A stretch of DNA of 49,962 nucleotides from an uncultured Candidatus Saccharibacteria bacterium (GCA_964587465.1 CAZPLH010000001.1:1-49962); one strand, 5' to 3'. Positions 7,049-33,585 are shown, numbered from the stretch's first letter. Notes: a model not told the origin generated them from the letters alone. A program made the numbers and translations.

Positions 7049-7714
7049 ATGCATAAAAATCGTCTGTTGCAACCAACGATAATCTACTTCTTAGGAATGC
7101 CCGGTGTGGGCAAAAGCTACGTTGCGCGTCAACTAAGTGACCTTTTAGGTGCTGCGCACGTAAGCAGCGACCGTTTGCGCTACGAACTGTTTGCCGAACC
7201 ACGTTTCGACAAAGGCGAGCACATGGTTATTACGCGCCTTATGGAATACATGACCGAAGAATTCTTGGGCATTGGCCACAGCGTGGTCTACGACATTTCA
7301 GTAAGCCGCCTACAAGACCGCCGCGAACTACGCGAACTTGCGCGTAAAAACAACGCTAAAGAACTACTTATTTGGATTCAGACTGACATGGAACACGCCT
7401 GGAGCCGCGCTCAAACCATTGACCGCCGCAAGCTGGACGACAAATACCGTGCACCAATCGACCGTGCCGTGTTCGAGCAGTACGTGCGCCTTATCCAGAA
7501 CCCGCAACACGAACAGTATCTGGTATTAAGTGGCAAGCAAATGTTCGAAACCCACAAATCGGCAATTTTGCGCCGCTTGAAAGAGATGAATCTGTTAGAT
7601 ACCCAAAACCTTAACCCGCAAGTTGGCAAGCCAGGCTTGGTAAACCTCGTGTCGCAAGCACAGGCGCAAGCGGGTCGTGTTGACCCTAATAGGCGTAATA
7701 TAACGCTCCGGTAA
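7049..7714 (+). CDS. P-loop kinase / AAA_33-like ATP-binding protein
   Basis: Walker A 'GMPGVGKS' close to the N-terminus. About 220 aa, as in zeta-toxin/gluconate-kinase-like small kinases. Confidence 0.6.
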   Translation: MHKNRLLQPTIIYFLGMPGVGKSYVARQLSDLLGAAHVSSDRLRYELFAEPRFDKGEHMVITRLMEYMTEEFLGIGHSVVYDISVSRLQDRRELRELARKNNAKELLIWIQTDMEHAWSRAQTIDRRKLDDKYRAPIDRAVFEQYVRLIQNPQHEQYLVLSGKQMFETHKSAILRRLKEMNLLDTQNLNPQVGKPGLVNLVSQAQAQAGRVDPNRRNITLR

Positions 7715-7724
7715 GCGAATATAC

Positions 7725-8432
7725 ATGGCATCGAAGCAATTCACGCTCGAGTCAATTGGTGAGGTAACAATTTATAAGCGTAAAGGTGTGCGACGCATAA
7801 ATTTACGCATTCAGGGCGGTGCAATTAAAGTAACGCAGCCTGCGTGGTTGCCGTATGCTACGGGTGTGCACTTTGCGCAGTCACAAAAAGAGTGGATTGT
7901 GACAAAGCGCGAACAACAAGCTGACGTTATTATCAAAAATGGCCAAACGTACGGTAAAAAGCACACACTTTATTTTGCAACGAGCACACGGGTCGCCTCT
8001 AAGGTAAGTGAATCGCAAATTATTGTCAGCCACCCTAAGGGCGTGTCAACCGAAAGTGAACACGTGCAACTGGCAGCCAAGCAAGCAATTAAAAAAGCCC
8101 TCAAGCAAGAAGCCGAATTGTTACTACCAAACCGGCTAGACCTTATGGCCAAAACATATAATTTCACCTACAGCAGCGTACGAATCCGCGCCATGCACAC
8201 ACGGTGGGGTAGTTGTACCAACAAAGGTGCAATCAGCCTTAACTTGTATCTTATGATGTTGCCCTGGGAGCTTATTGACTACGTATTACTACACGAGCTA
8301 ACGCACACCAAACACCTGGACCATAGTGCCGCATTTTGGGCGGCATTAGAAGTCGTTATGCCCGACAGTAAAAAACGCCGCGCAGCGTTAAAAAAGATTC
8401 AAGCTAGCATTACGCCACTACAACAAGTTTAG
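7725..8432 (+). CDS. YgjP-like (DUF45) zinc metallopeptidase-fold protein
   Basis: 'RWGSCTNKGAISLNLYLMMLP...LLHELTHTKHLDHSAAFW' is the DUF45/WLM-type HExxH signature. Confidence 0.75.
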   Translation: MASKQFTLESIGEVTIYKRKGVRRINLRIQGGAIKVTQPAWLPYATGVHFAQSQKEWIVTKREQQADVIIKNGQTYGKKHTLYFATSTRVASKVSESQIIVSHPKGVSTESEHVQLAAKQAIKKALKQEAELLLPNRLDLMAKTYNFTYSSVRIRAMHTRWGSCTNKGAISLNLYLMMLPWELIDYVLLHELTHTKHLDHSAAFWAALEVVMPDSKKRRAALKKIQASITPLQQV

Positions 8433-14758: not shown

Positions 14759-14822
14759 TAACGTTAATTAAGTAAGTGGGAGGCCCTTAAAAAGCCGTTT
14801 GCACCACGAAAGGAACATAGTT

Positions 14823-15770
14823 ATGGCAGAAGCCAAGAAGAAAGCCGTAAAGGCAGAAGAAGTAGAAACTAAAGTAGAGGCCATAGAAGCTGCAGCTGAA
14901 GTAGTAGCAGTAGAAGAAGCACCTAAGGCAGAAAAGAAACTTACAGCGAAAGCTGGCAAGCGTAGCGCAAAAGCAATCGCCGAAGTTGAAGAAAAGCAAG
15001 AAAAAGAAGCTCGCAAAGCTGACGCAGCTACTGCAGCACCAGCGCCAAAGGCAGCACCTAAGCCTCGCACTCGTCTAGAGCGCCAGGGTAAAAAGTTCCG
15101 CCAGGCTGCAACTTTGCTTGAAAAAGGCAAAGAATACGGTGTAAAAGAAGCGCTTGAACTAGCTGCTAAAACCAGCACAACTAAGTTTGATGCAACAGTT
15201 GAACTACACGTTAACCTTGGTGTTGACCCACGTCACGCAGACCAAAACATCCGCCAAACGCTTGTTTTGCCTGCTGGTACCGGTAAAACTGTCAAAGTTG
15301 CTGTATTTGCCGAAGCTGACGACGCTGCTAAGGCTAAAAAAGCTGGTGCAGATATAGCTGGCAGCGAAGAATTCTTGCAACAGCTCGACAAGGGCGTTAT
15401 CGACTTTGACGTGCTTGTAGCAACCCCAGCTGTAATGCCAAAACTTGGTAAGTACGCACGTGTACTTGGGCCAAAAGGTCTTATGCCAAGTCCAAAAAGC
15501 GGTACCGTAACAACTGACGTTGAAAAAGCCGTAACTGAAGCTAAGGCCGGTAAAGTTGAATTCCGTGTCGACACAAGCGGTATTGTGCACCTTGGTGTTG
15601 GAAAGGTTGGCTTTGGCGCCGACAAGCTTGCACTTAACGTAAACGCAGTTCTTGCAGCAATTAAGGCTGCTAAGCCTGCAAGCGTTAAGGGCGCATACGT
15701 AAAGTCTATTTATGTCACCACAACTATGGGCCCATCGCTCAAAATCGCATTAAGCGAGATGAACGTATAA
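14823..15770 (+). CDS. rplA: 50S ribosomal protein L1 with an N-terminal Lys/Ala/Glu-rich extension of about 80 aa
   Basis: The canonical L1 core starts near 'RQGKKFRQAATLLEKGKEYGVKEALELA...FDATVELHVNLGVDPRHADQNIR'. AAAGGAA precedes ATG 14823 (track ORF starts at 14799). Confidence 0.9.
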   Translation: MAEAKKKAVKAEEVETKVEAIEAAAEVVAVEEAPKAEKKLTAKAGKRSAKAIAEVEEKQEKEARKADAATAAPAPKAAPKPRTRLERQGKKFRQAATLLEKGKEYGVKEALELAAKTSTTKFDATVELHVNLGVDPRHADQNIRQTLVLPAGTGKTVKVAVFAEADDAAKAKKAGADIAGSEEFLQQLDKGVIDFDVLVATPAVMPKLGKYARVLGPKGLMPSPKSGTVTTDVEKAVTEAKAGKVEFRVDTSGIVHLGVGKVGFGADKLALNVNAVLAAIKAAKPASVKGAYVKSIYVTTTMGPSLKIALSEMNV

Positions 15771-15788: not shown

Positions 15789-15818
15789 AAAAAGCTCCGA
15801 GAAATCGGAGCTTTTTAA
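15789..15818. terminator. Bidirectional rho-independent terminator
   Basis: AAAGCTCCGA-GAAA-TCGGAGCTTT, a perfect 10-bp stem flanked by A and T runs, between convergent rplA and the hydrolase gene. Confidence 0.75.
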
Positions 15819-16905
15819 TTACGGCGTTTACCCTCGAGCTGGTTCGATTCTTGATACGGCAGTACGAGGTATCTAAAAAGTGCATCGGCAAATTCTTTTG
15901 GTTTATCGGTTTCGTCGGCGTGTCCGCCATTCTTTACCAAAATGCGAACAAGGCGAATGCCAAGCTCTGATTCGTAGCGGTTTGCGGCTTCCCGCGTAAA
16001 CACGGTTTCGTCGGCGTGCTGATTTTCGGGCATAACGTAGTAAACGGCCATTGCTTGCTTAATTCGTTCGGCTGAATCATCAATGTCAATCGTCCCGAGC
16101 TTACCAAGTTCGTCGGTAAATAAGCGGGGTGAACTACCGGTTATTGAAACTCGCCAAGCGTCTTTTACTTGTTCGGCAATACTAAGGCTATGGTTGGCGT
16201 GCAGCATGGTATTGTTTACAATTTCAAATCCAAACTTACTTAAAAAGCCACCCCCGTAAAAGTCGGCCGGGCCGCTCGCTTTTGGCGAAAAGCTATTTTT
16301 TGCATCGTATATCCATGACGGTGAAGAATCATAGACCACAAATTTGATTCTATATTCGCTAGGTACATACTTAAGGATTTCTGACAGTAAGACGCCACCC
16401 ATACTGTGTGCCCAAAAGCTTACTGTTTTTGCATCGTGCTTTTGAAGAAGCTGCGTAATTTGCTCGCCTGCTTCTTGCGGGTCGACGCCGTTATCTTCGA
16501 ACGATAAATAGCCAACATCCCCGTATAATGCAGAGTACTGTTGTCTACCGAGGCAATACCTTCGCCACTTTGAACCCCTAATCCGGGCACAATTATCCAA
16601 AGATTATCAGATGTTTTACCTTCGTATTCTGAAAGCACAGCAGCTTTTGTTTCGCCACCGTTCCACATGGCAAAACCAAGTGCTTTGTCGGTATTTACAA
16701 AAACCGAAAGTCCAAGCAGTACACCTGCACCAAATTTACGAAGACGAATATTGTCGAGCGGCGGATGCTGCACTTCACTAGAGCGAAGTGCTTGTTTTGC
16801 TAATTTTTTACGGAGCCGTTTTTCTTTGCGCGGTCGCTTATAGGCGCGGAGCTCAAACTGCTGTTCTAGCTCATCTGTTTTTGGTTGTTTTTCTATAAGT
16901 GCCAC
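15815..16905 (-). pseudogene. Membrane-anchored alpha/beta hydrolase (lipase/esterase-like) split by a 1-nt frameshift
   Basis: ORF 16420..16905 (TM anchor, 'WIIVPGLGVQSGEG') and ORF 15815..16600 ('GDVGYLSFEDNG', nucleophile elbow 'AHSMGG') overlap in different frames. Adding one G to the GGGG run (plus-strand CCCC at 16519-16522) joins them as ...STLHYTGDVGYLSF... Confidence 0.6.
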
Positions 16906-17028
16906 AATTGCGCATTATTGTACGCCTTTTTTCACAGAATAGTACAGTTGTTTGCTATGATTATTTTAAGAAGTGGGCCGTACATTCCTGAATATGCATT
17001 TATTGGACGAAAATGCACTATAACCACA

Positions 17029-17751
17029 ATGATTGATATAACCGGCACCTACAGCAATACTCAAATTAAAAAGGCCATAGAAAATGGTCATATTGTGTGC
17101 GTACCGCTTGTGCCCGAGCATATAAACGGTAGTAGCGTCGACGTTACGCTTGGTATGCACTTTTATCGTATTCAAGACCGCCGCGTTGGCTCGTTGGTGT
17201 ATAACCCGTACGAAAAAGCCCAGGTGGACAAGCACTTTGTCTATAGCAAAGCAGAAACACATAAAGAAGTCATAGAACGGCTTGGTGTTGAACCGCTCGA
17301 AAACATTCCGCTTGACCAGTTAGTAATACATTTAGAGCCCGGTGAGCGTATTTTAGGACACACGCATGAGTTTATTGGCATTAAGGCGCCCGGTACTAGC
17401 AGTATGCAGGCACGTAGTACTACTGGCCGTAACGGCATTGCCGTGTGCTTAGACGCCGGGTGGGGTGACCCAGGTTACATAAACCGCTGGACTATGGAAA
17501 TTTATAATATGCACCAAGAAAAGCATATGTTTTTACCTGTTGGTTCGCGCATAGCGCAGCTGGTGTTTTACCACACCGGGCCAGTAGAGGGCGAGTACAG
17601 TGGACTCAGCGGCAAATATCAATCTGTCGGTGCCGATAATTTAGATGAACTTATTGCAAGCTGGAAACCCGAGCAAATGCTGCCCAAAGCATACAAAGAC
17701 GTATTGGTGCCGTATGTGCCACTTGTGTGTGACGAGGTGAAGGAGAGCTAA
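17029..17751 (+). CDS. dcd: dCTP deaminase family protein (dUTPase superfamily)
   Basis: 'SSVDVTLG', 'SMQARSTTGRNGI' and 'DAGWGDPGYINRWTMEIYN...RIAQLVF' motifs. The start is chosen at Met 'MIDITG' because the track ORF's N-terminus runs into the divergent promoter region. Confidence 0.8.
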   Translation: MIDITGTYSNTQIKKAIENGHIVCVPLVPEHINGSSVDVTLGMHFYRIQDRRVGSLVYNPYEKAQVDKHFVYSKAETHKEVIERLGVEPLENIPLDQLVIHLEPGERILGHTHEFIGIKAPGTSSMQARSTTGRNGIAVCLDAGWGDPGYINRWTMEIYNMHQEKHMFLPVGSRIAQLVFYHTGPVEGEYSGLSGKYQSVGADNLDELIASWKPEQMLPKAYKDVLVPYVPLVCDEVKES

Positions 17752-18426
17752 ATGGCTTTAATTGTAGATTTTGAAGGTAATGATGGTTCTGGCAAAGGGG
17801 TTCAGTTCCAGCTTTTGCAGGACCGACTCGCCATAGAAGGCAGAGAAGTATTGGCGTTGTCTTTTCCTTACCTTCAATCGGAATCTGGGCAAGAAATTGA
17901 TGCTATGTTGCACGGCGAAAAACCGGCCGACCCGTATGAAATGGCAACAGTGTATGCCAAGAACCGTCTCGAACGCTTACCAGAAATTAGAGAAGCCATG
18001 GGGCGTGGTGCCGTATTGTTGTTCGACCGCTATGTGCCATCAAACATTGTGTTCCAAACCGAACGCCTAGAAGGTGCAGCGAAGCAGCTAAGCATGCGGC
18101 ACTGGATAACCGACATGGAATACCGTTGGAATGGCTTGCCTGAACCAGATTTGACTATTGTGCTTGCCGTTAATGCTAAGGTTGCAAGGCTTAACATGCT
18201 CGGTCGTGACCCACGGACTAACGTTGAAAGCTTAGATATTATTGAAAAAGACACAGCACTGCAAGAACGTGCCGTAGCCGCCTACGACGCACTCTGCCAA
18301 GAGCACCCAGATACGTATCAAAAAGTTGACTGCGTAGATGAGCGCTTAGGTAGAATGCGCGACCGCGACGTTATTCATGCCGAAGTGTGGTCGTTGGTAG
18401 CCAGAAAACTAGGTATAGAGCACTAA
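17752..18426 (+). CDS. tmk: Thymidylate kinase-like protein with an atypical Walker A
   Basis: 'IVDFEGNDGSGKGV' (GKG instead of GK[ST]) and the 'FDRYVPSNIVFQ' DRY motif. The ATG immediately follows the dcd stop. Confidence 0.7.
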   Translation: MALIVDFEGNDGSGKGVQFQLLQDRLAIEGREVLALSFPYLQSESGQEIDAMLHGEKPADPYEMATVYAKNRLERLPEIREAMGRGAVLLFDRYVPSNIVFQTERLEGAAKQLSMRHWITDMEYRWNGLPEPDLTIVLAVNAKVARLNMLGRDPRTNVESLDIIEKDTALQERAVAAYDALCQEHPDTYQKVDCVDERLGRMRDRDVIHAEVWSLVARKLGIEH

Positions 18427-18430
18427 AAGT

Positions 18431-19888
18431 ATGGCCGGCACGCTTATTGCGCTCGAATCAACGAATCAGCAGCTACTAAATAAAACTGCACGGTATTTGG
18501 CGTTAAAACTACAGACAGAAGGTAAAAGCGTAGAGGTTTTAAGCTTTCCGCAAGCTAAACAAAGTAGCGGACATTTTGTACAATCTCACCAAAACGGCGA
18601 ATATGGGCAGGTAAACCCGTACGCCGCAAGTATGTTTTATATTTTAGACCGGTACGATGCCAGCCCGCAGATTAGGCAATTTTTAGAACAAGATGTAATA
18701 GTTATTTGCAAAAGCTACCGTGGTACAAGCCTTGCCGAATTAGGTGCGCAAATTAGCGATGCTGAAACACGCAAAGGCTTTTACATTTGGGCAGATAGTT
18801 TAGAGTCTGGCACTTTTAGTGTGCCACGCCCTGATGTCGCAATTGTATTAAGCGAAGAATTGCCAACATTGTACGAACTATGCGAGCTATTCCCTAAAGA
18901 TTATATTTTTGCCATAGACCCAACTAAAATCCGCAATATGCTTAACAAACTCATCCCTCCAGCACCTGCTGTTCGAAAAAAACAGGCTGCGACCAAAATA
19001 AGCTGGATTGACGCATTGCGCGCACTTGGAGAGGGCAGGCAGGTAGATTTTGCTCCTACTAACTCGTACGTAACACTTGCGAACAAATCGTCGCAGCATA
19101 AAGCATATGCCAAAGGATTGCATGAGCTAGAAGAGCTTAAAAAAATCGCGCTTAGTAAATTGCCCGAAGCGGAACACGCGAATGCCGGTCACCAAGTGAC
19201 ACCAGTCGGGCATATGGGTGCAACAACAAGTGAACTCCCGCAACGTGGGGGCTATAAAAATCGCATTCTTACAAAGCTCATTGCCCAAAATTTCGAGTCA
19301 AATTATGGAGAACTCAACGACGAGGTGTGTGTAGTCACACGTTCATACCGGAACGAATTAGGCGCACTTCCAGAATTGCTTTCTGGCAGAACTGAACAGA
19401 ATATTTCAGAGCTTATTGCATTAACGGCCACAATGCCAATTACTAAAAAAATAGAATTGTATAAAGCGTATTTAGCTGGTTACGACAATGACCCGGCTGA
19501 CTATAGCTTAGCCGCGCTACAGCTTACCGTAGCGCTACGAATTTCATATGCAGATTTGTGGACTCTGGCCCGTAAGTTGCCGAGTATCCGCTTTTCGTTT
19601 CAAGAGCCAACCCCACGGTGGGGCTATGACATTACAAAAAGTCAGCAAAACGCAGAAGGCGAGCTTGAAAACTGTTATTTAGCAAGCCTGAAACTTTTTA
19701 GCGAGCTTGAGGCAGCGAATGAGCCTAAAGCTGCAAAGGCAGTGGTGCTACAGGGGCACTTTACACAGGCTGTAGTTACGCTTGACGGCTCTGCAATGCG
19801 CAACTTTGCCGCCGTTGCAGACCAGTCATCGGCATTGCAACGTTTGCAAAATGTAATTACGGAACAATTTCCAATTATAAGTTCTTAA
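18431..19888 (+). CDS. Fusion protein: P-loop-less thymidylate-kinase-like domain plus ThyX-like domain lacking the RHRxxS signature
   Basis: N-terminal 'LIALESTNQQLLNKT...LDRYDA...KSYRGTS' follows the Tmk layout without GxxGxGK. C-terminal 'LTVALRISYADLWTLARKLPSIRFSFQEPTPRW' and 'AKAVVLQGHFTQAVVTLDGSAMRNF' align by eye with the ThyX core (RHR becomes RKL, SxRY becomes TPRW). Confidence 0.45.
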   Translation: MAGTLIALESTNQQLLNKTARYLALKLQTEGKSVEVLSFPQAKQSSGHFVQSHQNGEYGQVNPYAASMFYILDRYDASPQIRQFLEQDVIVICKSYRGTSLAELGAQISDAETRKGFYIWADSLESGTFSVPRPDVAIVLSEELPTLYELCELFPKDYIFAIDPTKIRNMLNKLIPPAPAVRKKQAATKISWIDALRALGEGRQVDFAPTNSYVTLANKSSQHKAYAKGLHELEELKKIALSKLPEAEHANAGHQVTPVGHMGATTSELPQRGGYKNRILTKLIAQNFESNYGELNDEVCVVTRSYRNELGALPELLSGRTEQNISELIALTATMPITKKIELYKAYLAGYDNDPADYSLAALQLTVALRISYADLWTLARKLPSIRFSFQEPTPRWGYDITKSQQNAEGELENCYLASLKLFSELEAANEPKAAKAVVLQGHFTQAVVTLDGSAMRNFAAVADQSSALQRLQNVITEQFPIISS

Positions 19889-19967: not shown

Positions 19968-20207
19968 TTAGCCCGGTAGTGGCGCGGGTGCTGCCTGGGC
20001 AGCATCGGTCAGGTCGGTCACCTGCTTGCTTCGCTTCTCGCGAATGGCTGCGCCGAGGCGCTTGATGTCGTTCTTCTGATCTGATGGTGCCCCGAAGCTT
20101 GCTGCTTGCAGCTCCAGCTCACGCAGGTAGCTGCTGGCGCCGTCGCAGTCCCCCTTGTCCAGGCACTCGTAGGCGCAATCGATAAGATCGAGCGGACTTG
20201 CCACCAC
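19968..20207 (-). CDS. Hypothetical small helical protein in a G+C-rich segment
   Basis: 79-aa ORF with GTG start 10 nt after AGGAG. Strong G/C preference at third codon positions, unlike its neighbours. Confidence 0.45.
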   Translation of the reverse strand: MVASPLDLIDCAYECLDKGDCDGASSYLRELELQAASFGAPSDQKNDIKRLGAAIREKRSKQVTDLTDAAQAAPAPLPG

Positions 20208-20424: not shown

Positions 20425-21108
20425 TTACGAATCAAAGTTTTGGCGGCCAAGTTTAAGTTGATACATCTCGCTATCGGCAGCTTGTAATGCTTCTTGCGCT
20501 GAACCATAGTCGGCGACGTTAACAAATCCAAGTGAAAACGTAACTGGCTCGCCGTATAAGTCGGTAGCTTTAGCAATTGCACGCTGGTGAACGAGCGGTG
20601 GTAGGGTACGCAGTACGTCTGGGTCGGCGAGTGATACCCGTACCAAAAAAACGAATTCGTCGCCCCCATAGCGACAAATGGTGTCAGACGGTCGAAGCGC
20701 TCCTCGAAGCCCATCGGCAACAGCCTTAATGAGTTGATCTCCGGCAGCGTGCTTGTCGGGGTGCTCGTCGTTTACGCGTTTTAACCCGTCAATATCTGCA
20801 AAACACAGTAAAATAGCCCTCGGGAAATCGCGTTGTTCGCCTTGCTCTTGGGCAACAATAAATCGTTCGAGTTCATCTATACAAAATTCATCGAAGAAGC
20901 GTCGTGAGTTTATGCCGGTTAACGAATCGATCCAGGCAATACGTTCAAGCCTTTCGTTGGCAGTTCGCAGTCTTTCGTTTTCGGCGAGTAATTTACTGAC
21001 AATTGTCTGCAAGCTTGCGAGTGCAAACCGAGCATCGCTCTCAATGGTAACCTCGGGCGTGCTAGTAATATCTATCGATGGTTCTGAATTGTGTGGTTGT
21101 GTAGTCAT
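20425..21108 (-). CDS. Diguanylate cyclase (GGDEF domain) with an N-terminal coiled coil
   Basis: 'RYGGDEFVFL' active site with an 'RPSD' I-site 5 residues upstream. 'DSLTGINSRRFF' is the start of the GGDEF domain. Confidence 0.85.
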   Translation of the reverse strand: MTTQPHNSEPSIDITSTPEVTIESDARFALASLQTIVSKLLAENERLRTANERLERIAWIDSLTGINSRRFFDEFCIDELERFIVAQEQGEQRDFPRAILLCFADIDGLKRVNDEHPDKHAAGDQLIKAVADGLRGALRPSDTICRYGGDEFVFLVRVSLADPDVLRTLPPLVHQRAIAKATDLYGEPVTFSLGFVNVADYGSAQEALQAADSEMYQLKLGRQNFDS

Positions 21109-21262
21109 AATAAAAAATCTCCGGCAAAACCAGAGAATATACGAGTATTGTCCGGTTTCGCTACTAGCTCGGTTATGTACAAGCGACCAGATACATACAT
21201 AACGTCTTTGCTTACTAATTTGTGATAATTATCATACTACAAGATTGAATATATAGCAATAG

Positions 21263-21291
21263 TTGACCGTAGCTGCCGTATCTGTTACCAT
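21263..21291 (+). promoter_or_regulatory. Putative promoter of rplJL
   Basis: TTGACC - 17 nt - TACCAT with an extended -10 TG (atcTGtTACCAT). Confidence 0.45.
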
Positions 21292-21297
21292 AGATAC

Positions 21298-21467
21298 GAA
21301 TTACCAAAGACAGTGACTGGTAGCGATGCCTTAATTTGTCACCGAGGTGAAATAATCTAGTTTTAGCTTGTTTCAATCCTTTGGTAGTGTCCAAAGGAAT
21401 TTTTATTTCCAGGACAGAACATTTACAAATTGGTCGATTGTAAATAACTAAACAAGGAATCTATTCT
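21298..21467 (+). promoter_or_regulatory. rplJ 5' leader with an attenuator-like hairpin (candidate L10 leader)
   Basis: About 170-nt untranslated leader. TCCTTTGG-TAGTGT-CCAAAGGA followed by ATTTTTATTT at 21377-21409. A second AT-rich hairpin ATTTACAA/TTGTAAAT at 21421-21445. Confidence 0.4.
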
Positions 21468-21992
21468 ATGGCGTTAAGCAAAGAACAGAAATCTACCGTT
21501 GTTGCCGACCTTACCGAACTTCTTTCGGGCTCTAAGATGACCGTTGTTGCCGAATACAAAGGCATGACCGTTAAATCTATGCAGAAGCTCCGCAAAGACG
21601 CAAAAGGTAATGGTACGTCAGTAAAGGTAGTAAAAAACCGCTTGGTTAAACAAGCGATTAGCGGCGTTGACACCCTTAAAGGTGTTGAAGTAGCTGCACT
21701 ACAAGGTCAGCTTTTGTACGCATTTAACGATGCAGACGAAGTTGCTCCTGCAAAAGCGCTGAGCGACTTTGCAAAAACTGAACCAGCTTTACAGTTTGTC
21801 GGTGCAATTACCGCTGAAGGTGCTTTTATTAGCGCTGACGAAGTAAAGGCGCTTGCAAGCCTACCAAGCAAGAATCAGCTTATTGCTGGTGTTATTAACA
21901 CTCTTAACTCACCTGTGCGTGGTGTTATGGGTAGCCTTTCAGGCAACCTTCATGGTCTTCTACAAGGTCTTGAAGCTAAAGCAAGTAATTAA
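21468..21992 (+). CDS. rplJ: 50S ribosomal protein L10
   Basis: 174-aa ORF with the typical L10 pattern ('VVAEYKGMTVKSMQKLRKD'), immediately upstream of rplL. Confidence 0.93.
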   Translation: MALSKEQKSTVVADLTELLSGSKMTVVAEYKGMTVKSMQKLRKDAKGNGTSVKVVKNRLVKQAISGVDTLKGVEVAALQGQLLYAFNDADEVAPAKALSDFAKTEPALQFVGAITAEGAFISADEVKALASLPSKNQLIAGVINTLNSPVRGVMGSLSGNLHGLLQGLEAKASN

Positions 21993-23110: not shown

Positions 23111-23140
23111 AAAGGGAGCTGGGTCTCCCTTTTTTATTTT
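23111..23140. terminator. Bidirectional rho-independent terminator
   Basis: AAAGGGAG-CTGGGT-CTCCCTTT followed by TTTATTTT. It overlaps the stop codon of the convergent nucleotidyltransferase gene. Confidence 0.7.
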
Positions 23141-23949
23141 CCGGTTAGTTCGTGGAATGCGGCAAGCGCCTCAACGGAGGCAAGTAGCGCGCCTTCGAGA
23201 GCTTCGAAGTGCATTTCTCCTAAAGCATCAGTATAGTAGCGAAGATCTCTTTTGCCTGTACGGATGTCTTCCATGAGCTGTGAATACTCCGCATCAAGAC
23301 TAGACAGTAACTCCAAGTGCGCTACAAACGAATTAGGTAGTTGCGGAACCGTAATATCTAGTGCCTGTAGGAATCGGCGGCCAAAAGCGCGAGGTAGTTC
23401 TAAGGCTCGCTGCATATCACGGTAATTTTCATTGTCCTCGGAAGATTTAGTGAACTTTTCCTTTTTATGGATAATATATTGCCGTAATGACTCGAGGGGG
23501 TCTAGCTCACAGGGAGTTACTAATCCTGTAATGGACTCAAGCTCGTCGGGCTTTTCTATAAACGGACCACCATCTCGTTCGGCGCTGGCGAGATAATCTA
23601 AAAACAGAGTGTCTATCGTGTGTTCTCCTGCCTTTGCTTGCGATTCGGTCATGACTATCGGCTCCACAGTAAGTCGTTTTTCCCAGGCGGCGCCATGCAA
23701 GCTGCAAACGTAATCATGAAACTCATTCGGGCTAATGTCATCGGGTACTATCGCCAAAAAATCTACATCTGAGCGTACTGTTGCTTCTAGCCGCGCTGTC
23801 GACCCGTGAACCATTGCGCCAATGATAGGAAATTTGGCGTGCGTAATTTCGCTTCTTAATGCTAGAAGCTCGCGCGCAAGCCTATAGTGTGCTCCATCGT
23901 CCGGATATCTACCTCGACCAATTTCGTCGGGACTGTATACTTTACCCAT
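23134..23949 (-). CDS. Pol-beta superfamily nucleotidyltransferase with a helical C-terminal (possibly HEPN/KNTase-like) domain
   Basis: 'GAMVHGSTARLEATVRSDVDFLAIV' (GS...DxD NTase core). The C-terminal helical half contains 'RQYIIH' (Rx4H). Confidence 0.65.
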   Translation of the reverse strand: MGKVYSPDEIGRGRYPDDGAHYRLARELLALRSEITHAKFPIIGAMVHGSTARLEATVRSDVDFLAIVPDDISPNEFHDYVCSLHGAAWEKRLTVEPIVMTESQAKAGEHTIDTLFLDYLASAERDGGPFIEKPDELESITGLVTPCELDPLESLRQYIIHKKEKFTKSSEDNENYRDMQRALELPRAFGRRFLQALDITVPQLPNSFVAHLELLSSLDAEYSQLMEDIRTGKRDLRYYTDALGEMHFEALEGALLASVEALAAFHELTGK

Positions 23950-24020
23950 ATCGCCTCATAGTGCTCCAAGCTCTAACAGATTGCAAGCACAAGCAATTTG
24001 TGCGTAGAATCAACAACAAA

Positions 24021-24047
24021 ACAGCGACAAATGCGTCGCTGTTTTTT
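24021..24047 (+). terminator. Orphan terminator-like hairpin in the tdk upstream region
   Basis: ACAGCGAC-AAATGC-GTCGCTGT followed by TTTTT. It lies about 11 nt downstream of a TTGCAA-18-TAGAAT promoter-like element (23981-24010). Confidence 0.5.
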
Positions 24048-24096
24048 ATACTGGTTGTAAAGCTGCGAAATAAAAATAGTAAAAAGAGGTGTTAGT

Positions 24097-24684
24097 GTGG
24101 CTAAGCTTTATTTTAGATACAGTGCAATGAACAGCGGTAAAACCACGGCGCTTATTCAGTCTGCCTTTAATTACGAAGAGCGTGGCATGCGTGCTTTAGT
24201 GCTAAAACCGGGCGTTGATACTAAAGGTGGGCAAGAAATTGTTTCGCGCATTGGCGCTAAACGGAAAGTAGACGTGGTACTTGCGTCTGAAGCAAGCGCC
24301 AAAGAAGCAATTCAGGCATTCCGTGGCAGCACGGAGCTATACTGCATTTTGGTAGATGAAGCTCAGTTTTTACAGCCATCACAGGTAGATGAGCTGTTTT
24401 GGTACGCCGTTAACGAAGATGTGCCAGTGCTCAGTTATGGGCTACGCACCGACTTTAAGGGCACTGGGTTCCCGGGTAGTACACGGCTTTTAGAGCTTGC
24501 GCATGAACTACAAGAACTAAAAACCATATGCCGGTGCGGCAAAAAAGCTTTATTCAACGGCCGAAAAGTAAATGGAAAATTCGTAGCCGAAGGCGACCAA
24601 GTGGCAATAGACGGCGAAGATGCGGTAGAGTATGAATCACTGTGCGCACGCTGTTATCAAAACGAAGTTTTAGGAATTCTGTAG
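24097..24684 (+). CDS. tdk: Thymidine kinase
   Basis: 'MNSGKTTALI' P-loop, 'VDEAQFL', and zinc ribbon 'CRCGKKA...CARCY'. GTG start after AAGAGG. Confidence 0.9.
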   Translation: MAKLYFRYSAMNSGKTTALIQSAFNYEERGMRALVLKPGVDTKGGQEIVSRIGAKRKVDVVLASEASAKEAIQAFRGSTELYCILVDEAQFLQPSQVDELFWYAVNEDVPVLSYGLRTDFKGTGFPGSTRLLELAHELQELKTICRCGKKALFNGRKVNGKFVAEGDQVAIDGEDAVEYESLCARCYQNEVLGIL

Positions 24685-32420: not shown

Positions 32421-32511
32421 TGCTACTCCTAGGAACAATTTTACATCAAATTGTTTATATATAGTGCGGTAGAATAGTTTTTGACTGTCAAAAATAAACA
32501 TGGAGCATTCT

Positions 32512-33585
32512 ATGGATTCTACCGAAGCAACCGACAACCAACCCACCATGAAAGAAGCGCTTGCAGCAGCCGAAGCGCCGCTTACGATTGCTAACGAAAA
32601 AACTAAAGTCGCTACAGTTGACGGCTATAACGAAACAGATATTTTTGCGTGGGCCAATAACCTCGTGCAGTACGTAGACGAGCTCAAAATTGACCTCTAC
32701 TTCTTTAATAAGAATTACACCGTGTACCGCACTAAGTTAACGGGCGACGTTGCGCGTCAATTGCGGCCGTTATTTTTAGATGACGTGATTGAGTACATTT
32801 TAGGCGGCATAGAAACTGGCCTTATTGTGCGTGACTTCGAAGCTGCCGAAAAAGAGGACGGCGTGCTGCAAAAAACCCGCACCGGAAATGTAGAAAAGCT
32901 GACGACTGTACTTAACTGGATTCGTAACGAGCAACACAACATAGAAACGTTCGACGACGCCGAACACGACCTAAAGCGCATAAAAGGGGTCGCTGCCCAC
33001 TGTAGCCACCCAGACATGCCCAAAAGCTTCACGTTATTTAAAAATCTGCCGACGAGCCAAATTATGAAAGGGCCAACAGCCTGGACGCTTAAAGACGGCG
33101 TATTTAAACCGTTCGACACCATGACTGCCCTTAAAATACCTGCAGAAAACCAATTACTTGTGGTAGATCAAGACTTATTTGTGTTTAACCAGACAAAGCT
33201 CAAGCAGCTTTTCGGTTACGACGCCAAAGCTTCGTACATTGCTGCAAAAAAAGTAGAAGAAATTGAAGCAAACTTTAGGCTTAACTTTGCAGACGGTTTT
33301 GGGTTGCAATCACTGGTTAAAGGCAGCCCAGCGACCATTAAAAAACTGCAAAAGATTGAACCAAGTCTGGTTAAGCAAGAAGACCTAGTAAGTCACGCCG
33401 AAGATATGGGCGTAGAACTTATGGTAGATGAATCAGGAGCCATAATTATTATGGACGACAAAGACTTAAAGCGGTTTGTCAACCTGTTAAACGACGATTA
33501 CGTTGAATCAAACATGACTGGCCAACGCTACGAAATCTTAACTAAACGCGTGCTTAAACCGACCGATTCTGACAGCCAGTTATAA
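32512..33585 (+). CDS. Hypothetical protein with a KwaB/DUF4868-like sequence pattern
   Basis: GGAG lies 6 nt before ATG 32512. 'LLVVDQDLFVFNQTKLKQLFGY' and C-terminal 'FVNLLNDDYVESNMTGQRYEILTKRVL' resemble the DUF4868 pattern as I recall it. Unverified. Confidence 0.4.
   Translation: MDSTEATDNQPTMKEALAAAEAPLTIANEKTKVATVDGYNETDIFAWANNLVQYVDELKIDLYFFNKNYTVYRTKLTGDVARQLRPLFLDDVIEYILGGIETGLIVRDFEAAEKEDGVLQKTRTGNVEKLTTVLNWIRNEQHNIETFDDAEHDLKRIKGVAAHCSHPDMPKSFTLFKNLPTSQIMKGPTAWTLKDGVFKPFDTMTALKIPAENQLLVVDQDLFVFNQTKLKQLFGYDAKASYIAAKKVEEIEANFRLNFADGFGLQSLVKGSPATIKKLQKIEPSLVKQEDLVSHAEDMGVELMVDESGAIIIMDDKDLKRFVNLLNDDYVESNMTGQRYEILTKRVLKPTDSDSQL

What the first reader, a model, noticed from the sequence alone, without database searches (positions are those of the whole stretch)
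17029..19888. dcd-tmk operon ends in a fusion of a P-loop-less thymidylate kinase and a signature-less ThyX fold
Three tightly packed genes: the tmk ATG follows the dcd stop directly, and the next gap is 4 nt.

- Gene 1 keeps all dCTP-deaminase motifs.
- Gene 2 has the Tmk layout and the DRY motif, but its Walker A reads GNDGSGKG. It lacks the Mg-binding Ser/Thr after the Lys.
- Gene 3 (485 aa) starts like Tmk but replaces the P-loop with 'ESTNQQLLNKT'.
- The C-terminal 190 aa of gene 3 align by eye with ThyX. 'LTVALRISYADLWTLARKLPSIRFSFQEPTPRW' matches 'FTFhv.apifvarQwfRHRiaSy.e.SgRY'. 'AKAVVLQGHFTQAVVTLDGSAMRNF' matches 'Ar.vLP.....t...T.N.RSLmNF'. The catalytic RHR, Ser and SxRY residues are all substituted.

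Two dUMP/dTMP-binding folds that both look inactive, fused together and encoded with a dCTP deaminase, do not form a described arrangement that I know of. Possible roles are a nucleotide sensor or regulator, a non-canonical pyrimidine-modifying enzyme, or a dNTP-pool-manipulating (anti-phage-like) module. Kinase-plus-dCTP-deaminase proteins are known defence effectors.
Basis: partly seen in the sequence, partly recalled or inferred. Interest (0 to 1): 0.7.

Follow-up and report, generated by a model that had tools for sequence, protein, structure and literature searches.

The report
Dead thymidylate kinase–ThyX fusion protein
In a Saccharibacteria genome, a conserved gene encodes a fusion of a thymidylate kinase fold and a ThyX thymidylate-synthase fold that have both lost their catalytic residues yet are under very strong purifying selection. 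It is the stripped-down descendant of a working kinase–synthase fusion common in this phylum, so it must have kept or gained a non-catalytic job that nobody has described.

Summary
The three genes dcd (17029-17751), tmk (17752-18426) and a 485-aa gene (18431-19888) sit tightly packed between rplA and rplJ.

**Gene 3 folds.** A high-confidence AlphaFold model (pLDDT 95) has an N-terminal Tmk fold (M. tuberculosis TMK, TM 0.80). An earlier, shallower model had already matched the C-terminal part to T. maritima ThyX (Foldseek probability 1.0).

**Lost catalytic features.**
- Kinase half: no P-loop, no catalytic DRY arginine (it reads KSY), no LID.
- ThyX half: no RHR and no SxRY.

**Origin.** Gene 3 belongs to a large Pfam-dark family (about 490 clusters at 50% identity), found so far only in Saccharimonadia/Patescibacteria genomes. 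The family derives from a Tmk + tandem-ThyX fusion of about 780 aa that follows dcd in most Saccharimonadales examined. In that fusion, repeat 1 keeps SxRY and repeat 2 keeps RHR.

**Window clade.**
- Kinase activity has been moved to a swappable stand-alone tmk.
- Sister lineages carry an actinobacterial thyX (62% GC). The window does not.

**Selection.** Gene 3 has dN/dS 0.04, and its dead kinase domain 0.005, lower than rplA.

**Interpretation.** The best reading is a non-catalytic nucleotide-binding or scaffolding pseudoenzyme of the dTTP pathway. The mechanism is inferred, not shown. A defence role is not supported.

The parts
17029..17751 (+). dcd: dCTP deaminase family protein, 240 aa. 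It could also be a bifunctional dCTP deaminase/dUTPase; this was not resolved.
   Evidence: Pfam DCD at 7.9e-34. TIGR02274 scores 83 bits, below its cut-off of 92.8. Best solved relative is 4xjc, with RSxxGR and TxE aligned. It is 99% identical to L034 with dN/dS 0.011.
17752..18426 (+). tmk: stand-alone dTMP kinase of the M. tuberculosis type, 224 aa. Walker A is GNDGSGKGV. It is probably active and sits in a slot where the kinase gene is often replaced.
   Evidence: Pfam Thymidylate_kin at 2.7e-18 and NCBIfam PRK07933 at 2e-35. The alignment to 1g3u keeps D9, K13, F36-P37, R74, D94-R95-Y96, N100 and E166. Residues invariant among relatives are kept. Related genomes fill this slot with non-orthologous Tmk types. 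The gene is only 66% identical between strains whose dcd is 99% identical.
18431..19888 (+). Gene 3: a 485-aa protein in which both halves are pseudoenzymes (Tmk-like domain, remnant of ThyX repeat 1, ThyX-like repeat 2).
Evidence: AlphaFold model with pLDDT 95.1 and pTM 0.75. dN/dS is 0.037 against L034 and 0.064 between L003 and L031.
18431..18910 (+). N-terminal Tmk-like pseudokinase domain (aa 1-160).
   Evidence: Mtb TMK 4unp gives TM 0.80 and rmsd 2.7 A. PRK07933 matches at 6e-14 but far below its cut-off. Pfam Tmk scores 20.8 bits against a cut-off of 27. The domain is 98.8% identical to L034 at dS 1.1, giving dN/dS 0.005.
18455..18487 (+). Degenerate P-loop 'ESTNQQLLNKT' (aa 9-19), where relatives read EGSDGSGKTTQ.
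   Evidence: Alignments A1 and A3. In the model, helix 1 starts at residue 13, only 3 residues after strand 1.
18710..18718 (+). 'KSY' (aa 94-96) in place of the catalytic DRY motif. The thymine-binding 'LDRY' (aa 72-75, nt 18644-18655) and 'FP' (aa 39-40) are kept.
   Evidence: HMMER alignment to Mtb TMK 1g3u/4unn. Sequence read-out. A 34-residue LID deletion is seen relative to P0010.
18992..19300 (+). Remnant of ThyX repeat 1 (aa 188-290). Only its C-terminal half survives ('..Y..L.. helix .. TPVG..'). The half that carried SxRY is gone.
   Evidence: Comparison with the roughly 780-aa relatives, whose repeat 1 reads 'EWGRLASYLEQSTRY ... YKYFVP ... RPVLPVAT'. tblastn with the N-half of repeat 1 finds nothing in the window. 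Model pLDDT is 83-98 here.
19316..19885 (+). ThyX-like repeat 2 (aa 296-485). RHR is replaced by 'RKL' (aa 381-383), NAR by 'DGS', and no R174/H178 equivalents remain. It keeps the family motifs RNEL, K340, Q391..TPRWGY and GH.
   Evidence: Foldseek match to T. maritima ThyX. hhalign of the family against ThyX gives E 4.8e-4 over 185 columns. Multiple alignment with canonical and tandem ThyX. The exhaustive profile search finds 490 cluster representatives.
16938..16985 (+). Spacer upstream of dcd. It is homologous to the spacer that lies upstream of the horizontally acquired thyX in sister lineages. No thyX is present here.
   Evidence: blastn gives 81% identity to L031 2146-2192. tblastn with the L003 ThyX finds nothing in the window. 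The nearest relatives L034-L036 also lack thyX at this site.
24097..24684 (+). Thymidine kinase, an alternative (salvage) source of dTMP in this genome.
   Evidence: Pfam TK at 3.4e-38.

Best explanation
Gene 3 is a double pseudoenzyme: a catalytically dead remnant of the Saccharimonadia Tmk + tandem-ThyX fusion that selection has kept.

**Ancestral pathway (partly shown, partly inferred).** It was encoded by two adjacent genes.
- dcd makes dUTP or dUMP from dCTP.
- The fusion has a pseudo-dimeric ThyX in which repeat 1 supplies SxRY and repeat 2 supplies RHR. This part makes dTMP.
- The Tmk domain of the fusion makes dTDP.

**Changes on the branch leading to the window (shown).**
- The fusion lost the SxRY half of repeat 1, the RHR of repeat 2, and the P-loop, DRY arginine and LID of the kinase.
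- Kinase activity is now supplied by a separate tmk inserted between dcd and gene 3.
- In sister lineages a thyX taken from Actinobacteria supplies synthase activity.

**What remains of gene 3 (inferred).** It keeps both nucleotide-binding folds and the thymine-contacting Asp-Arg of Tmk. I infer that it binds dUMP or dTMP, or related pyrimidine nucleotides, without turning them over. It would then act as a regulatory or scaffolding subunit of the dCTP-to-dTTP module, for example by sensing the thymidylate pool or by organising Dcd, Tmk and ThyX. The fold, the loss of catalytic residues, the ancestry and the purifying selection are shown. Ligand binding and the regulatory or scaffold role are inferred.
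For: **Folds.** Tmk TM 0.80 and ThyX probability 1.0, from models with pLDDT 95 overall and about 90 for residues 190-485.

**Lost catalytic elements.**
- P-loop, DRY to KSY, LID deletion.
- RHR to RKL, and no SxRY anywhere in the protein.

**Ancestry.**
- The C-terminal profile finds 490 clusters, 380 of them below 1e-10, mostly 480-800 aa.
- Long members hit Pfam Thymidylate_kin plus two Thy1 stretches (1e-13 to 1e-35), with complementary motifs in the two repeats.
- Stand-alone tandem ThyX lies next to tmk in Paceibacterota and Kerfeldbacteria.
- The order rplA, dcd, fusion, rplJ holds in 11 Saccharimonadia loci (L008, L010-L019; L018's contig ends before rplJ).

**Displacement.**
- Every P-loop-less relative of the window's own clade whose upstream DNA was recovered has a separate or dcd-fused tmk directly upstream (L001, L003, L004, L007, L030, L031, L034-36, L038).
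- The thyX in L003, L030 and L031 is 62% GC against 43-47% for its neighbours, and 86-90% identical to Actinomycetes ThyX.

**Selection (dN/dS).**

| Comparison | gene 3 | N-domain | rplA | tmk |
|---|---|---|---|---|
| window vs L034 | 0.037 | 0.005 | 0.030 | 0.124 |
| L003 vs L031 | 0.064 | - | - | - |

**Recurrence.** 56 of 127 sampled family members lack an intact P-loop and 123 of 127 lack RHR.

**Precedent.** The inactive Tmk-fold subunit rPPK3 activates its catalytic neighbour by oligomerisation (PMC12995831).
Against: - No direct evidence of ligand binding or of any protein partner.
- The neighbouring tmk is non-orthologous between close lineages and evolves fast. This argues against a tight, co-evolving complex with that particular kinase.
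- The window and its nearest relatives keep dcd under strong selection but have no recognisable thymidylate synthase in the sequence available. This leaves room for a catalytic role of gene 3.
- About ten polar residues of repeat 2 are conserved family-wide. That looks more like a defined pocket than a plain scaffold.
- Some dTMP-contacting Tmk residues are changed (Mtb Y39, N100 and Y103 become A, S and E).
- Residue-level superposition on ThyX was not possible.
Confidence: 0.6

Rival explanations
1. Gene 3 is still an enzyme. Its ThyX-derived module, and that of the many 'class B' relatives without RHR or SxRY, would catalyse thymidylate synthesis or another pyrimidine-nucleotide modification with a different set of residues and perhaps a different cofactor.
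For: - dcd is kept at 99% identity and dN/dS 0.011 in lineages where no thyX is seen at the locus. A dCTP deaminase makes little sense without a consumer of dUMP.
- Repeat 2 keeps a family-wide set of polar residues: N308, E309, K340, Q391, R396, S419, S424 and H443.
- Class B fusions directly follow dcd in L008, L010 and L019 without any Thy1-detectable gene nearby.
Against: - The tested residues known to bind FAD and dUMP in ThyX are missing (RHR, SxRY, N163/R165, R174/H178).
- Sister lineages acquired a canonical thyX right next to the operon. This suggests the fusion does not supply synthase activity.
- Within the window clade several of the family-wide polar residues drift (GHxxR is lost).
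- Only 50 kb of the genome could be inspected, so thyA or thyX may lie elsewhere.
- The genome has thymidine kinase for salvage.
Confidence: 0.15
2. Gene 3 is a dedicated non-catalytic partner of the neighbouring Tmk. Its dead kinase domain would pair with the active kinase and activate or regulate it, as rPPK3 does for cPPK3.
For: - Gene 3 is adjacent to tmk with a 4-nt gap. In relatives the two genes overlap by 4-19 nt.
- A separate tmk co-occurs with every P-loop-less relative of the window's clade that was examined.
- A Tmk-fold heteromer is documented in PMC12995831.
Against: - The partner slot holds Mtb-type Tmk in some lineages and classical REPGGT-type Tmk in others.
- The slot differs by 34% between strains whose gene 3 is 95% identical.
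- The dead domain is nearly invariant while the supposed partner varies, which is not the pattern of a co-evolving interface.
- In another branch of the family, the P-loop-less P0041 has no tmk in the 2.4 kb recovered.
Confidence: 0.15
3. Gene 3 is a decaying relic with no function, left over after its activities were taken over by other genes.
For: It has lost every catalytic motif tested. It is shorter than its relatives, 485 aa against about 780 aa.
Against: - It is an intact ORF in all relatives seen.
- dN/dS is 0.037-0.064 overall and 0.005-0.025 in the dead kinase domain, as low as or lower than ribosomal proteins.
- The model is confidently folded (pLDDT 95).
Confidence: 0.04
4. The three genes form an anti-phage module that manipulates the dNTP pool, in the manner of kinase-plus-dCTP-deaminase defence proteins.
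For: Defence systems built on dCTP deaminases exist (my own knowledge). Gene 2 gives a weak PADLOC match to candidate PDC-M51B (4e-7). The tmk slot is hypervariable.
Against: - dcd and gene 3 have no PADLOC match.
- The block has a fixed position between rplA and rplJ in the Saccharimonadia loci examined, next to housekeeping genes.
- dcd is nearly invariant.
- The ancestral form is a plain biosynthetic pathway.
Confidence: 0.03

Closest known systems
Flavin-dependent thymidylate synthase ThyX (Pfam Thy1 PF02511; T. maritima TM0449)
   Same: The C-terminal half has the same fold (Foldseek probability 1.0, about 210 aligned columns). The alignment is collinear. Relatives in the same family pass the Pfam Thy1 threshold.
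   Different: - The window protein itself has no Thy1 hit.
- RHR, SxRY, N163/R165 and R174/H178 equivalents are all absent.
- It consists of one and a half repeats in a single chain, not one domain that forms a homotetramer.
Thymidylate kinase, M. tuberculosis type (PF02223; NCBIfam PRK07933; PDB 1g3u, 4unp)
   Same: Same fold (TM 0.80, rmsd 2.7 A). It keeps F-P (Mtb F36-P37), an aromatic residue at F70, and D73-R74, which contact thymine.
   Different: It has no P-loop, the catalytic D94-R95 reads K-S, N100 and Y103 read S and E, and the LID is deleted. Its scores fall below the curated cut-offs.
Saccharimonadia Tmk + tandem-ThyX fusion of about 780 aa (uncharacterised; for example the gene after dcd in OY970327.1, locus L013)
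   Same: Same genomic position after dcd, between rplA and rplJ. It is homologous over the Tmk domain, the C-half of repeat 1 and repeat 2.
   Different: The long form has an intact P-loop, a full repeat 1 with 'ASYLEQSTRY', and repeat 2 with 'RHR' and 'NAREAF..ELRTSPQGH'. It is therefore probably a working synthase-kinase. The window protein lacks all of these.
rPPK3 (Saci_2020), regulatory subunit of the archaeal polyphosphate kinase PPK3 (PMC12995831)
   Same: It is a catalytically inactive Tmk-fold protein encoded next to an active Tmk-fold enzyme, and it is retained for a non-catalytic role.
   Different: It belongs to a different branch of the Tmk superfamily and a different pathway (polyphosphate). 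It has no ThyX module. Here there is no evidence of a heteromer, and the active neighbour is interchangeable.
dCTP-deaminase-based anti-phage defence proteins
   Same: A dCTP deaminase is encoded together with a kinase-fold protein.
   Different: There is no PADLOC match for dcd or gene 3. The context is housekeeping and the vertically conserved synteny argues against a defence island.

Membership tests
ThyX / flavin-dependent thymidylate synthase (PF02511) | ThyX fold | tested here: met
   All top 50 Foldseek PDB matches are T. maritima ThyX (E about 2e-6, probability 1.0, target TM 0.55-0.58).
ThyX / flavin-dependent thymidylate synthase (PF02511) | Sequence match to the Pfam Thy1 model above the gathering score | tested here: not met
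   There is no Thy1 hit even at E <= 1 for the window protein. The PDB profile search gives only E 0.59 to ThyX. Long relatives do pass.
ThyX / flavin-dependent thymidylate synthase (PF02511) | ThyX signature RHR-x7-8-S-x-R-Y | tested here: not met
   The RHR position reads R381-K-L. The SxRY loop is deleted in repeat 2, and the repeat 1 half that carries it in relatives is missing.
ThyX / flavin-dependent thymidylate synthase (PF02511) | FAD binding and dUMP methylation activity; tetrameric active sites | not testable with these tools
   This needs biochemistry or a multimer/ligand model.
Thymidylate kinase (PF02223) - gene 3 N-domain | Tmk fold | tested here: met
   4unp gives TM 0.80, rmsd 2.7 A and 25% identity.
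Thymidylate kinase (PF02223) - gene 3 N-domain | Curated profile score | tested here: not met
   Pfam scores 20.8 bits against 27. PRK07933 scores 51.8 against 193.
Thymidylate kinase (PF02223) - gene 3 N-domain | P-loop GxxGxGK, catalytic DR(Y/H) arginine, LID | tested here: not met
   The P-loop reads ESTNQQLLNKT, DRY reads KSY, and a 34-residue LID deletion is present.
Thymidylate kinase (PF02223) - gene 2 | Profile score, P-loop Lys, DRY, dTMP-binding residues | tested here: met
   Pfam scores 66.7 bits, above the cut-off of 27. K15, D11, F38-P39, R72, D92-R93-Y94, N98 and E165 are kept. Exceptions: the NCBIfam equivalog cut-offs are not reached, and the Thr two residues after the Lys is Val.
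Saccharimonadia Tmk-ThyX fusion family (unnamed, Pfam-dark C-terminus) | C-terminal repeat 2 motifs (RNEL, WxYxxK, QxxTPR[YW]GY, CFDxSLxLxS, GH) and position after dcd between rplA and rplJ | tested here: met
   Profile search, alignments and synteny. The window clade is a relaxed variant: CYLASLKLFS, and GHFTQ without the Arg.
dCTP-deaminase anti-phage defence systems | Match to defence-system protein models; location in a variable defence island | tested here: not met
   dcd and gene 3 have no PADLOC hit. The housekeeping synteny is conserved.

The most novel reading that the evidence does not exclude
The Pfam-dark ThyX-derived module lacks RHR and SxRY, is shared by hundreds of Saccharimonadia protein clusters, and occurs here with a dead kinase domain. 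On this reading it is a new functional family: either a pyrimidine-nucleotide sensor that controls dTTP synthesis in these host-dependent bacteria, or an enzyme with new chemistry that consumes the dUMP made by the always-adjacent Dcd. In either case the near-invariant dead Tmk domain (dN/dS 0.005) would be its ligand-recognition or partner-docking element.
Probability: 0.3. Interest if true: 0.8.

Novelty: new variant of a known kind. Interest (0 to 1): 0.58.

Why it matters
**Relevance of the organisms.** Saccharibacteria (TM7) are obligate epibionts of Actinobacteria, some of them in the human mouth, with tiny genomes that retain few genes (my own knowledge).

**Why the gene stands out.**
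- It has lost every recognisable catalytic residue of two enzymes.
- Yet it is more constrained than the two ribosomal protein genes at the locus (rplA, rplJ), so it marks an unknown and probably important function in DNA-precursor supply.

**What the locus records.**
- A tandem-ThyX was fused to Tmk.
- Both halves of the fusion then lost activity.
- Kinase activity was refilled repeatedly by different tmk genes.
- Synthase activity was refilled in sister lineages by a thyX that appears to come from the Actinobacteria, the phylum these bacteria live on.

**What follows.**
- It offers a tractable case for how pseudoenzymes arise and why they are kept.
- It defines a large unannotated family (about 490 clusters) whose C-terminal domain current databases leave blank.
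- Current annotation labels these proteins 'dTMP kinase' or 'hypothetical'. For the P-loop-less members the first label is probably wrong.

Tried and rejected
- **Pfam and NCBIfam on gene 3.** They gave only a sub-threshold Tmk hit and no Thy1 hit. Sequence profiles alone would have missed the ThyX half.
- **PDB profile search with 10 sequences.** ThyX scored only E 0.59.
- **First AlphaFold model (10 sequences).** The N-domain was poor (pLDDT about 55-65). This was solved with the 127-sequence alignment.
- **The search for related loci with the 127-sequence alignment.** The 10-sequence alignment worked.
- **Reading 'TPRW' as the SxRY motif.** I first did this. I rejected it after hhalign and MAFFT with RHR-bearing relatives placed it downstream. 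A residue-level check by superposition was impossible because the tools return no coordinates.
- **Looking up the window's own contig by its gene 3 protein (P0001).** It is not on record. The assembly could not be identified and the rest of the genome could not be searched for thyA or thyX.
- **tblastn with ThyX and with the N-half of repeat 1 against the window.** Nothing was found.
- **PADLOC.** No support for a defence role.
- **Literature searches for a Tmk-ThyX fusion, tandem ThyX or Saccharibacteria thymidylate metabolism.** Nothing relevant was found.
- **Promoter and terminator scan of the operon.** Nothing above chance.
- **Pseudogene idea.** Rejected on the dN/dS values.

Full report
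**1. What is in the sequence**

The window is a housekeeping stretch of a Candidatus Saccharimonadales (Saccharibacteria, Patescibacteria/CPR) chromosome. It carries:
- secE-nusG-rplK-rplA upstream (by comparison with L034);
- rplJ-rplL, dnaX, dnaB, recR, cysS and the ATP synthase operon;
- relatives that are all Saccharimonadales/Saccharibacteria MAGs.

Three genes lie head to tail on the + strand between rplA (14799-15770) and rplJ (21468-21992):
- dcd, 17029-17751;
- tmk, 17752-18426, whose ATG directly follows the dcd stop;
- a 485-aa gene, 18431-19888, after a 4-nt gap.

No promoter- or terminator-like site above chance interrupts the block.

**2. Genes 1 and 2**

Gene 1 is a dCTP deaminase family protein.
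- Pfam DCD at 8e-34.
- Its best solved relative is 4xjc, with the RSxxGR and TxE motifs aligned.
- It falls just under the TIGR02274 equivalog cut-off. Whether it makes dUTP or dUMP was not resolved.

Gene 2 is a thymidylate kinase of the M. tuberculosis type.
- Pfam at 2.7e-18, PRK07933 at 2e-35, 1g3u at 1.5e-20.
- Its Walker A is indeed GNDGSGKG-V.
- This subfamily never has Ser/Thr directly after the Lys. Mtb TMK reads GKRT, and many relatives read GKGTQ, GKSTQ or GKATQ.
- Only the Thr two positions after the Lys is replaced (Val here, Lys in L003).
- Every residue that is invariant among its relatives is present: G9, D11, G12, S13, G14, K15, Q18, F38, P39, R72, R93 of DRY, N98 and E165.

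I regard gene 2 as probably active, though this is unproven.

**3.

- Sequence profiles see only a weak Tmk signal: Pfam 20.8 bits against a cut-off of 27, and PRK07933 at 6e-14. They see no ThyX signal.
- An AlphaFold model from 10 homologues was confident for residues 190-485. Its top 50 PDB matches were all T. maritima ThyX (E about 2e-6, probability 1.0, about 210 of 217 target residues).
- A second model, from a 127-sequence alignment, has mean pLDDT 95.1 and pTM 0.75. Its top 50 matches were all thymidylate kinases, the best being Mtb TMK 4unp (TM 0.80, rmsd 2.7 A).
- Profile-profile comparison of the C-terminal family with a small ThyX alignment is collinear over 185 columns (E 4.8e-4).

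**4. Both halves lack their catalytic equipment**

*Kinase half.*

| Feature | Typical state | Gene 3 |
|---|---|---|
| P-loop | EGSDGSGKTTQ | ESTNQQLLNKT |
| Catalytic D94-R95-Y96 (Mtb) | DRY | K94-S95-Y96 |
| N100 and Y103 (Mtb) | N, Y | S, E |
| LID | present | 34-residue deletion |

The residues that hold the thymine ring in Mtb TMK survive: F-P (aa 39-40), an aromatic at the F70 position, and D73-R74.

*ThyX half.*

| ThyX feature | Gene 3 |
|---|---|
| RHR | R381-K-L |
| NAR (N163/R165) | DGS |
| R174/H178 | no equivalents |
| SxRY loop | absent |

Relatives that still carry RHR show that the invariant 'TPR(Y/W)GY' lies downstream of where SxRY would be. The conclusion that the signature is missing is nevertheless right.

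**5. Gene 3 belongs to a large family**

An exhaustive profile search with the C-terminal part found 490 cluster representatives. Of these, 380 score below 1e-10, and most are 480-800 aa. They form a series.

- *(a) Stand-alone tandem ThyX.* In Paceibacterota (L022) and Kerfeldbacteria (L021), a tandem-repeat ThyX of about 400-470 aa lies next to glyA/tmk or tdk/tmk. It hits Pfam Thy1.
- *(b) Long fusion.* In nine Saccharimonadia loci (L009, L011-L018), including the complete chromosome OY970327.1, the gene after dcd is a protein of about 780 aa. It combines Tmk with an intact P-loop and two Thy1 stretches (E down to 1e-35).
  - Repeat 1 reads 'EWGRLASYLEQSTRY': SxRY is present, and RHR is reduced to WGR.
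  - Repeat 2 reads 'LQRHRMVDDL..TPRYGY .. TYNAREAF..ELRTSPQGH': RHR and the R174/H178 region are present, and SxRY is absent.
  - ThyX active sites are built from several subunits (established knowledge from the T. maritima structures). These complementary halves therefore look like a working pseudo-dimer.
  - I infer that dcd plus this fusion encode the route dCTP to dUMP to dTMP to dTDP.
- *(c) Short fusion, live kinase.* A second class (L008, L010, L019 and most database members) keeps a live Tmk. It has lost the N-terminal half of repeat 1 and the RHR of repeat 2. Pfam no longer sees its C-terminus.
- *(d) Window clade.* It has additionally lost the kinase motifs.

Among the 127 members I aligned, 56 lack an intact P-loop and 123 lack RHR. 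Doubly dead proteins are therefore common in this family. In the window protein, residues 188-290 are the surviving C-half of repeat 1 and residues 296-485 are repeat 2. tblastn with the missing N-half of repeat 1 finds nothing in the window.

**6. The lost activities were refilled from outside**

*Kinase.*
- Every P-loop-less relative of the window's own clade whose upstream DNA was recovered has an active-looking tmk directly upstream. It is either separate (window, L003, L007, L031, L034-36, L038) or fused to dcd (L001/L006, L004, L030).
- These kinases are not orthologous. Some are Mtb-like (FPRY, GKGxQ) and others are the classical REPGGT type.
- Between two strains whose dcd is 99% and gene 3 is 95% identical, tmk is only 66% identical. 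The slot between dcd and gene 3 is evidently refilled repeatedly.

*Synthase.*
- L003, L030 and L031-33 carry a canonical thyX (RHR..SGRY intact) just upstream of dcd.
- It is 62% GC against 43-47% for its neighbours.
- It is 86-90% identical to ThyX of Actinomycetes such as Frankiales.
- That points to transfer from Actinobacteria, the known hosts of Saccharibacteria (my own knowledge).
- The L003 ThyX is closer to actinobacterial proteins than to the L030 copy (78%), so there may have been more than one acquisition.

*The window itself.* The window and its nearest relatives (L034-36, Tmk 89% identical) lack this thyX. The spacer that precedes thyX elsewhere here precedes dcd (16938-16985). 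The window does encode thymidine kinase (24097-24684).

**7. The dead protein is under strong purifying selection**

| Comparison | Gene or region | dN/dS | Note |
|---|---|---|---|
| window vs L034 | gene 3 | 0.037 | |
| window vs L034 | gene 3 N-domain | 0.005 | 98.8% aa identity at dS 1.1 |
| window vs L034 | gene 3 middle | 0.074 | |
| window vs L034 | gene 3 C-terminal repeat | 0.049 | |
| window vs L034 | rplA | 0.030 | |
| window vs L034 | rplJ | 0.036 | |
| window vs L034 | dcd | 0.011 | |
| window vs L034 | tmk | 0.124 | |
| L003 vs L031 | gene 3 | 0.064 | |

Gene 3 is therefore neither a pseudogene nor a passive relic. Its kinase-dead domain is the most constrained sequence at the locus.

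**8. How it most likely works**

*Shown:* the two nucleotide-binding folds, the loss of catalytic residues, the descent from a synthase-kinase fusion, the constant partnership with dcd, and the strong constraint.

*Inferred:* the protein still binds a pyrimidine deoxynucleotide. The thymine-contacting D73-R74 and a family-wide set of polar residues in repeat 2 are conserved (N308, E309, K340, Q391, R396, S419, S424, H443). It would use that binding, or its oligomerisation surfaces, to regulate or organise the dCTP-to-dTTP module.

A precedent for an inactive Tmk-fold subunit that activates a neighbouring catalytic one is rPPK3 of Sulfolobus PPK3 (PMC12995831). Against a specific Tmk partner: the neighbouring kinase is interchangeable while the dead domain is nearly invariant. 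dcd is the constant neighbour, which makes Dcd, or the nucleotide pool itself, the more likely target.

*Main rival:* the ThyX-derived module retains or has gained catalysis. This would explain why dcd is kept where no thymidylate synthase is visible. It cannot be excluded because only 50 kb of the genome was available.

*Rejected readings:*
- A defence role is not supported. dcd and gene 3 have no PADLOC match, and the position is fixed and housekeeping.
- A functionless relic is contradicted by the dN/dS values.

**9. Novelty**

Both folds are well known, and pseudoenzymes are a known phenomenon. I found no description of Tmk-ThyX fusions, of tandem-repeat ThyX in CPR bacteria, or of this dead derivative. 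Databases name these proteins 'hypothetical protein' or 'dTMP kinase'. I file it as a new variant of known kinds. It is of moderate to high interest because of three things:
- the extreme constraint on a protein with no recognisable active site;
- the size of the family;
- the stepwise record of fusion, inactivation and refilling by horizontal transfer.

**10. Limits**

- No atomic coordinates were available for residue-level superposition.
- No multimer or ligand modelling was possible.
- The rest of the genome could not be searched.
- Class assignments rest on motif patterns in alignments, not on assays.

Noticed in passing
window 21141-21223 (-), with 20425-21108 (-) and 19968-20207 (-): A c-di-GMP-II riboswitch (RF01786, 54.2 bits against a gathering score of 53.5) lies directly upstream of a GGDEF diguanylate cyclase gene (Pfam 2e-22). 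A conserved 79-aa ORF of unusually high GC (63%) follows. A cyclase controlled by its own product would be a feedback loop. The arrangement is conserved in L003, L031 and L035.
   Followed up: partly
window 15815-16905 (-): The alpha/beta-hydrolase gene next to rplA is split into two overlapping ORFs by a single frameshift near 16520. The orthologue in L034 is an intact 363-aa ORF, and it is about 99% identical on both sides of the shift. This is either a recent pseudogene or an assembly error.
   Followed up: yes
L003 2761-3492; L030 3075-3809; L031 2212-2943: A canonical thyX is inserted between the hydrolase and dcd in sister lineages only. It is 62% GC in a 43-47% GC neighbourhood and 86-90% identical to Actinomycetes ThyX. 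It looks like gene transfer from the host phylum of Saccharibacteria. It may have been acquired more than once, because the L003 copy is closer to Frankiales than to the L030 copy.
   Followed up: partly
window 17752-18426 and the same slot in L003, L004, L007, L030, L031, L038: The tmk slot turns over fast. The gene is 66% identical between strains whose dcd is 99% identical. Different lineages fill it with Mtb-type or classical REPGGT-type kinases, sometimes fused to dcd.
   Followed up: partly
window 23134-24684: A nucleotidyltransferase-domain gene (23134-23949, -) and thymidine kinase (24097-24684, +) lie between a conserved 169-aa ORF and dnaX. The nearest relatives L034 and L035 have neither gene at this place. 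L031 and L001 do have TK nearby.
   Followed up: no
window 32500-33585 (+): This protein has a KwaB-like domain (PF16162, 1.6e-12), a component of the Kiwa anti-phage system. No KwaA partner was looked for.
   Followed up: no
window 21286-21414 (+): A ribosomal protein L10 leader (RF00557, 59 bits) precedes rplJ, as expected. It confirms that the dcd-tmk-gene 3 block and the convergent GGDEF unit are inserted between rplA and the rplJ leader.
   Followed up: no
L022 2891-6606; L021 60-2830: Other CPR phyla cluster a tandem-repeat ThyX with their thymidylate genes. In Paceibacterota it sits with glyA (SHMT, the CH2-THF source) and tmk. In Kerfeldbacteria it sits with tdk and tmk. The tandem-repeat ThyX with complementary half-motifs seems to be a general CPR feature.
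   Followed up: partly
window 7049-8432 (+): An AAA_33/zeta-toxin-like kinase (7049-7714) is followed by a YgjP-like metallopeptidase (7725-8432). This was not examined further.
   Followed up: no
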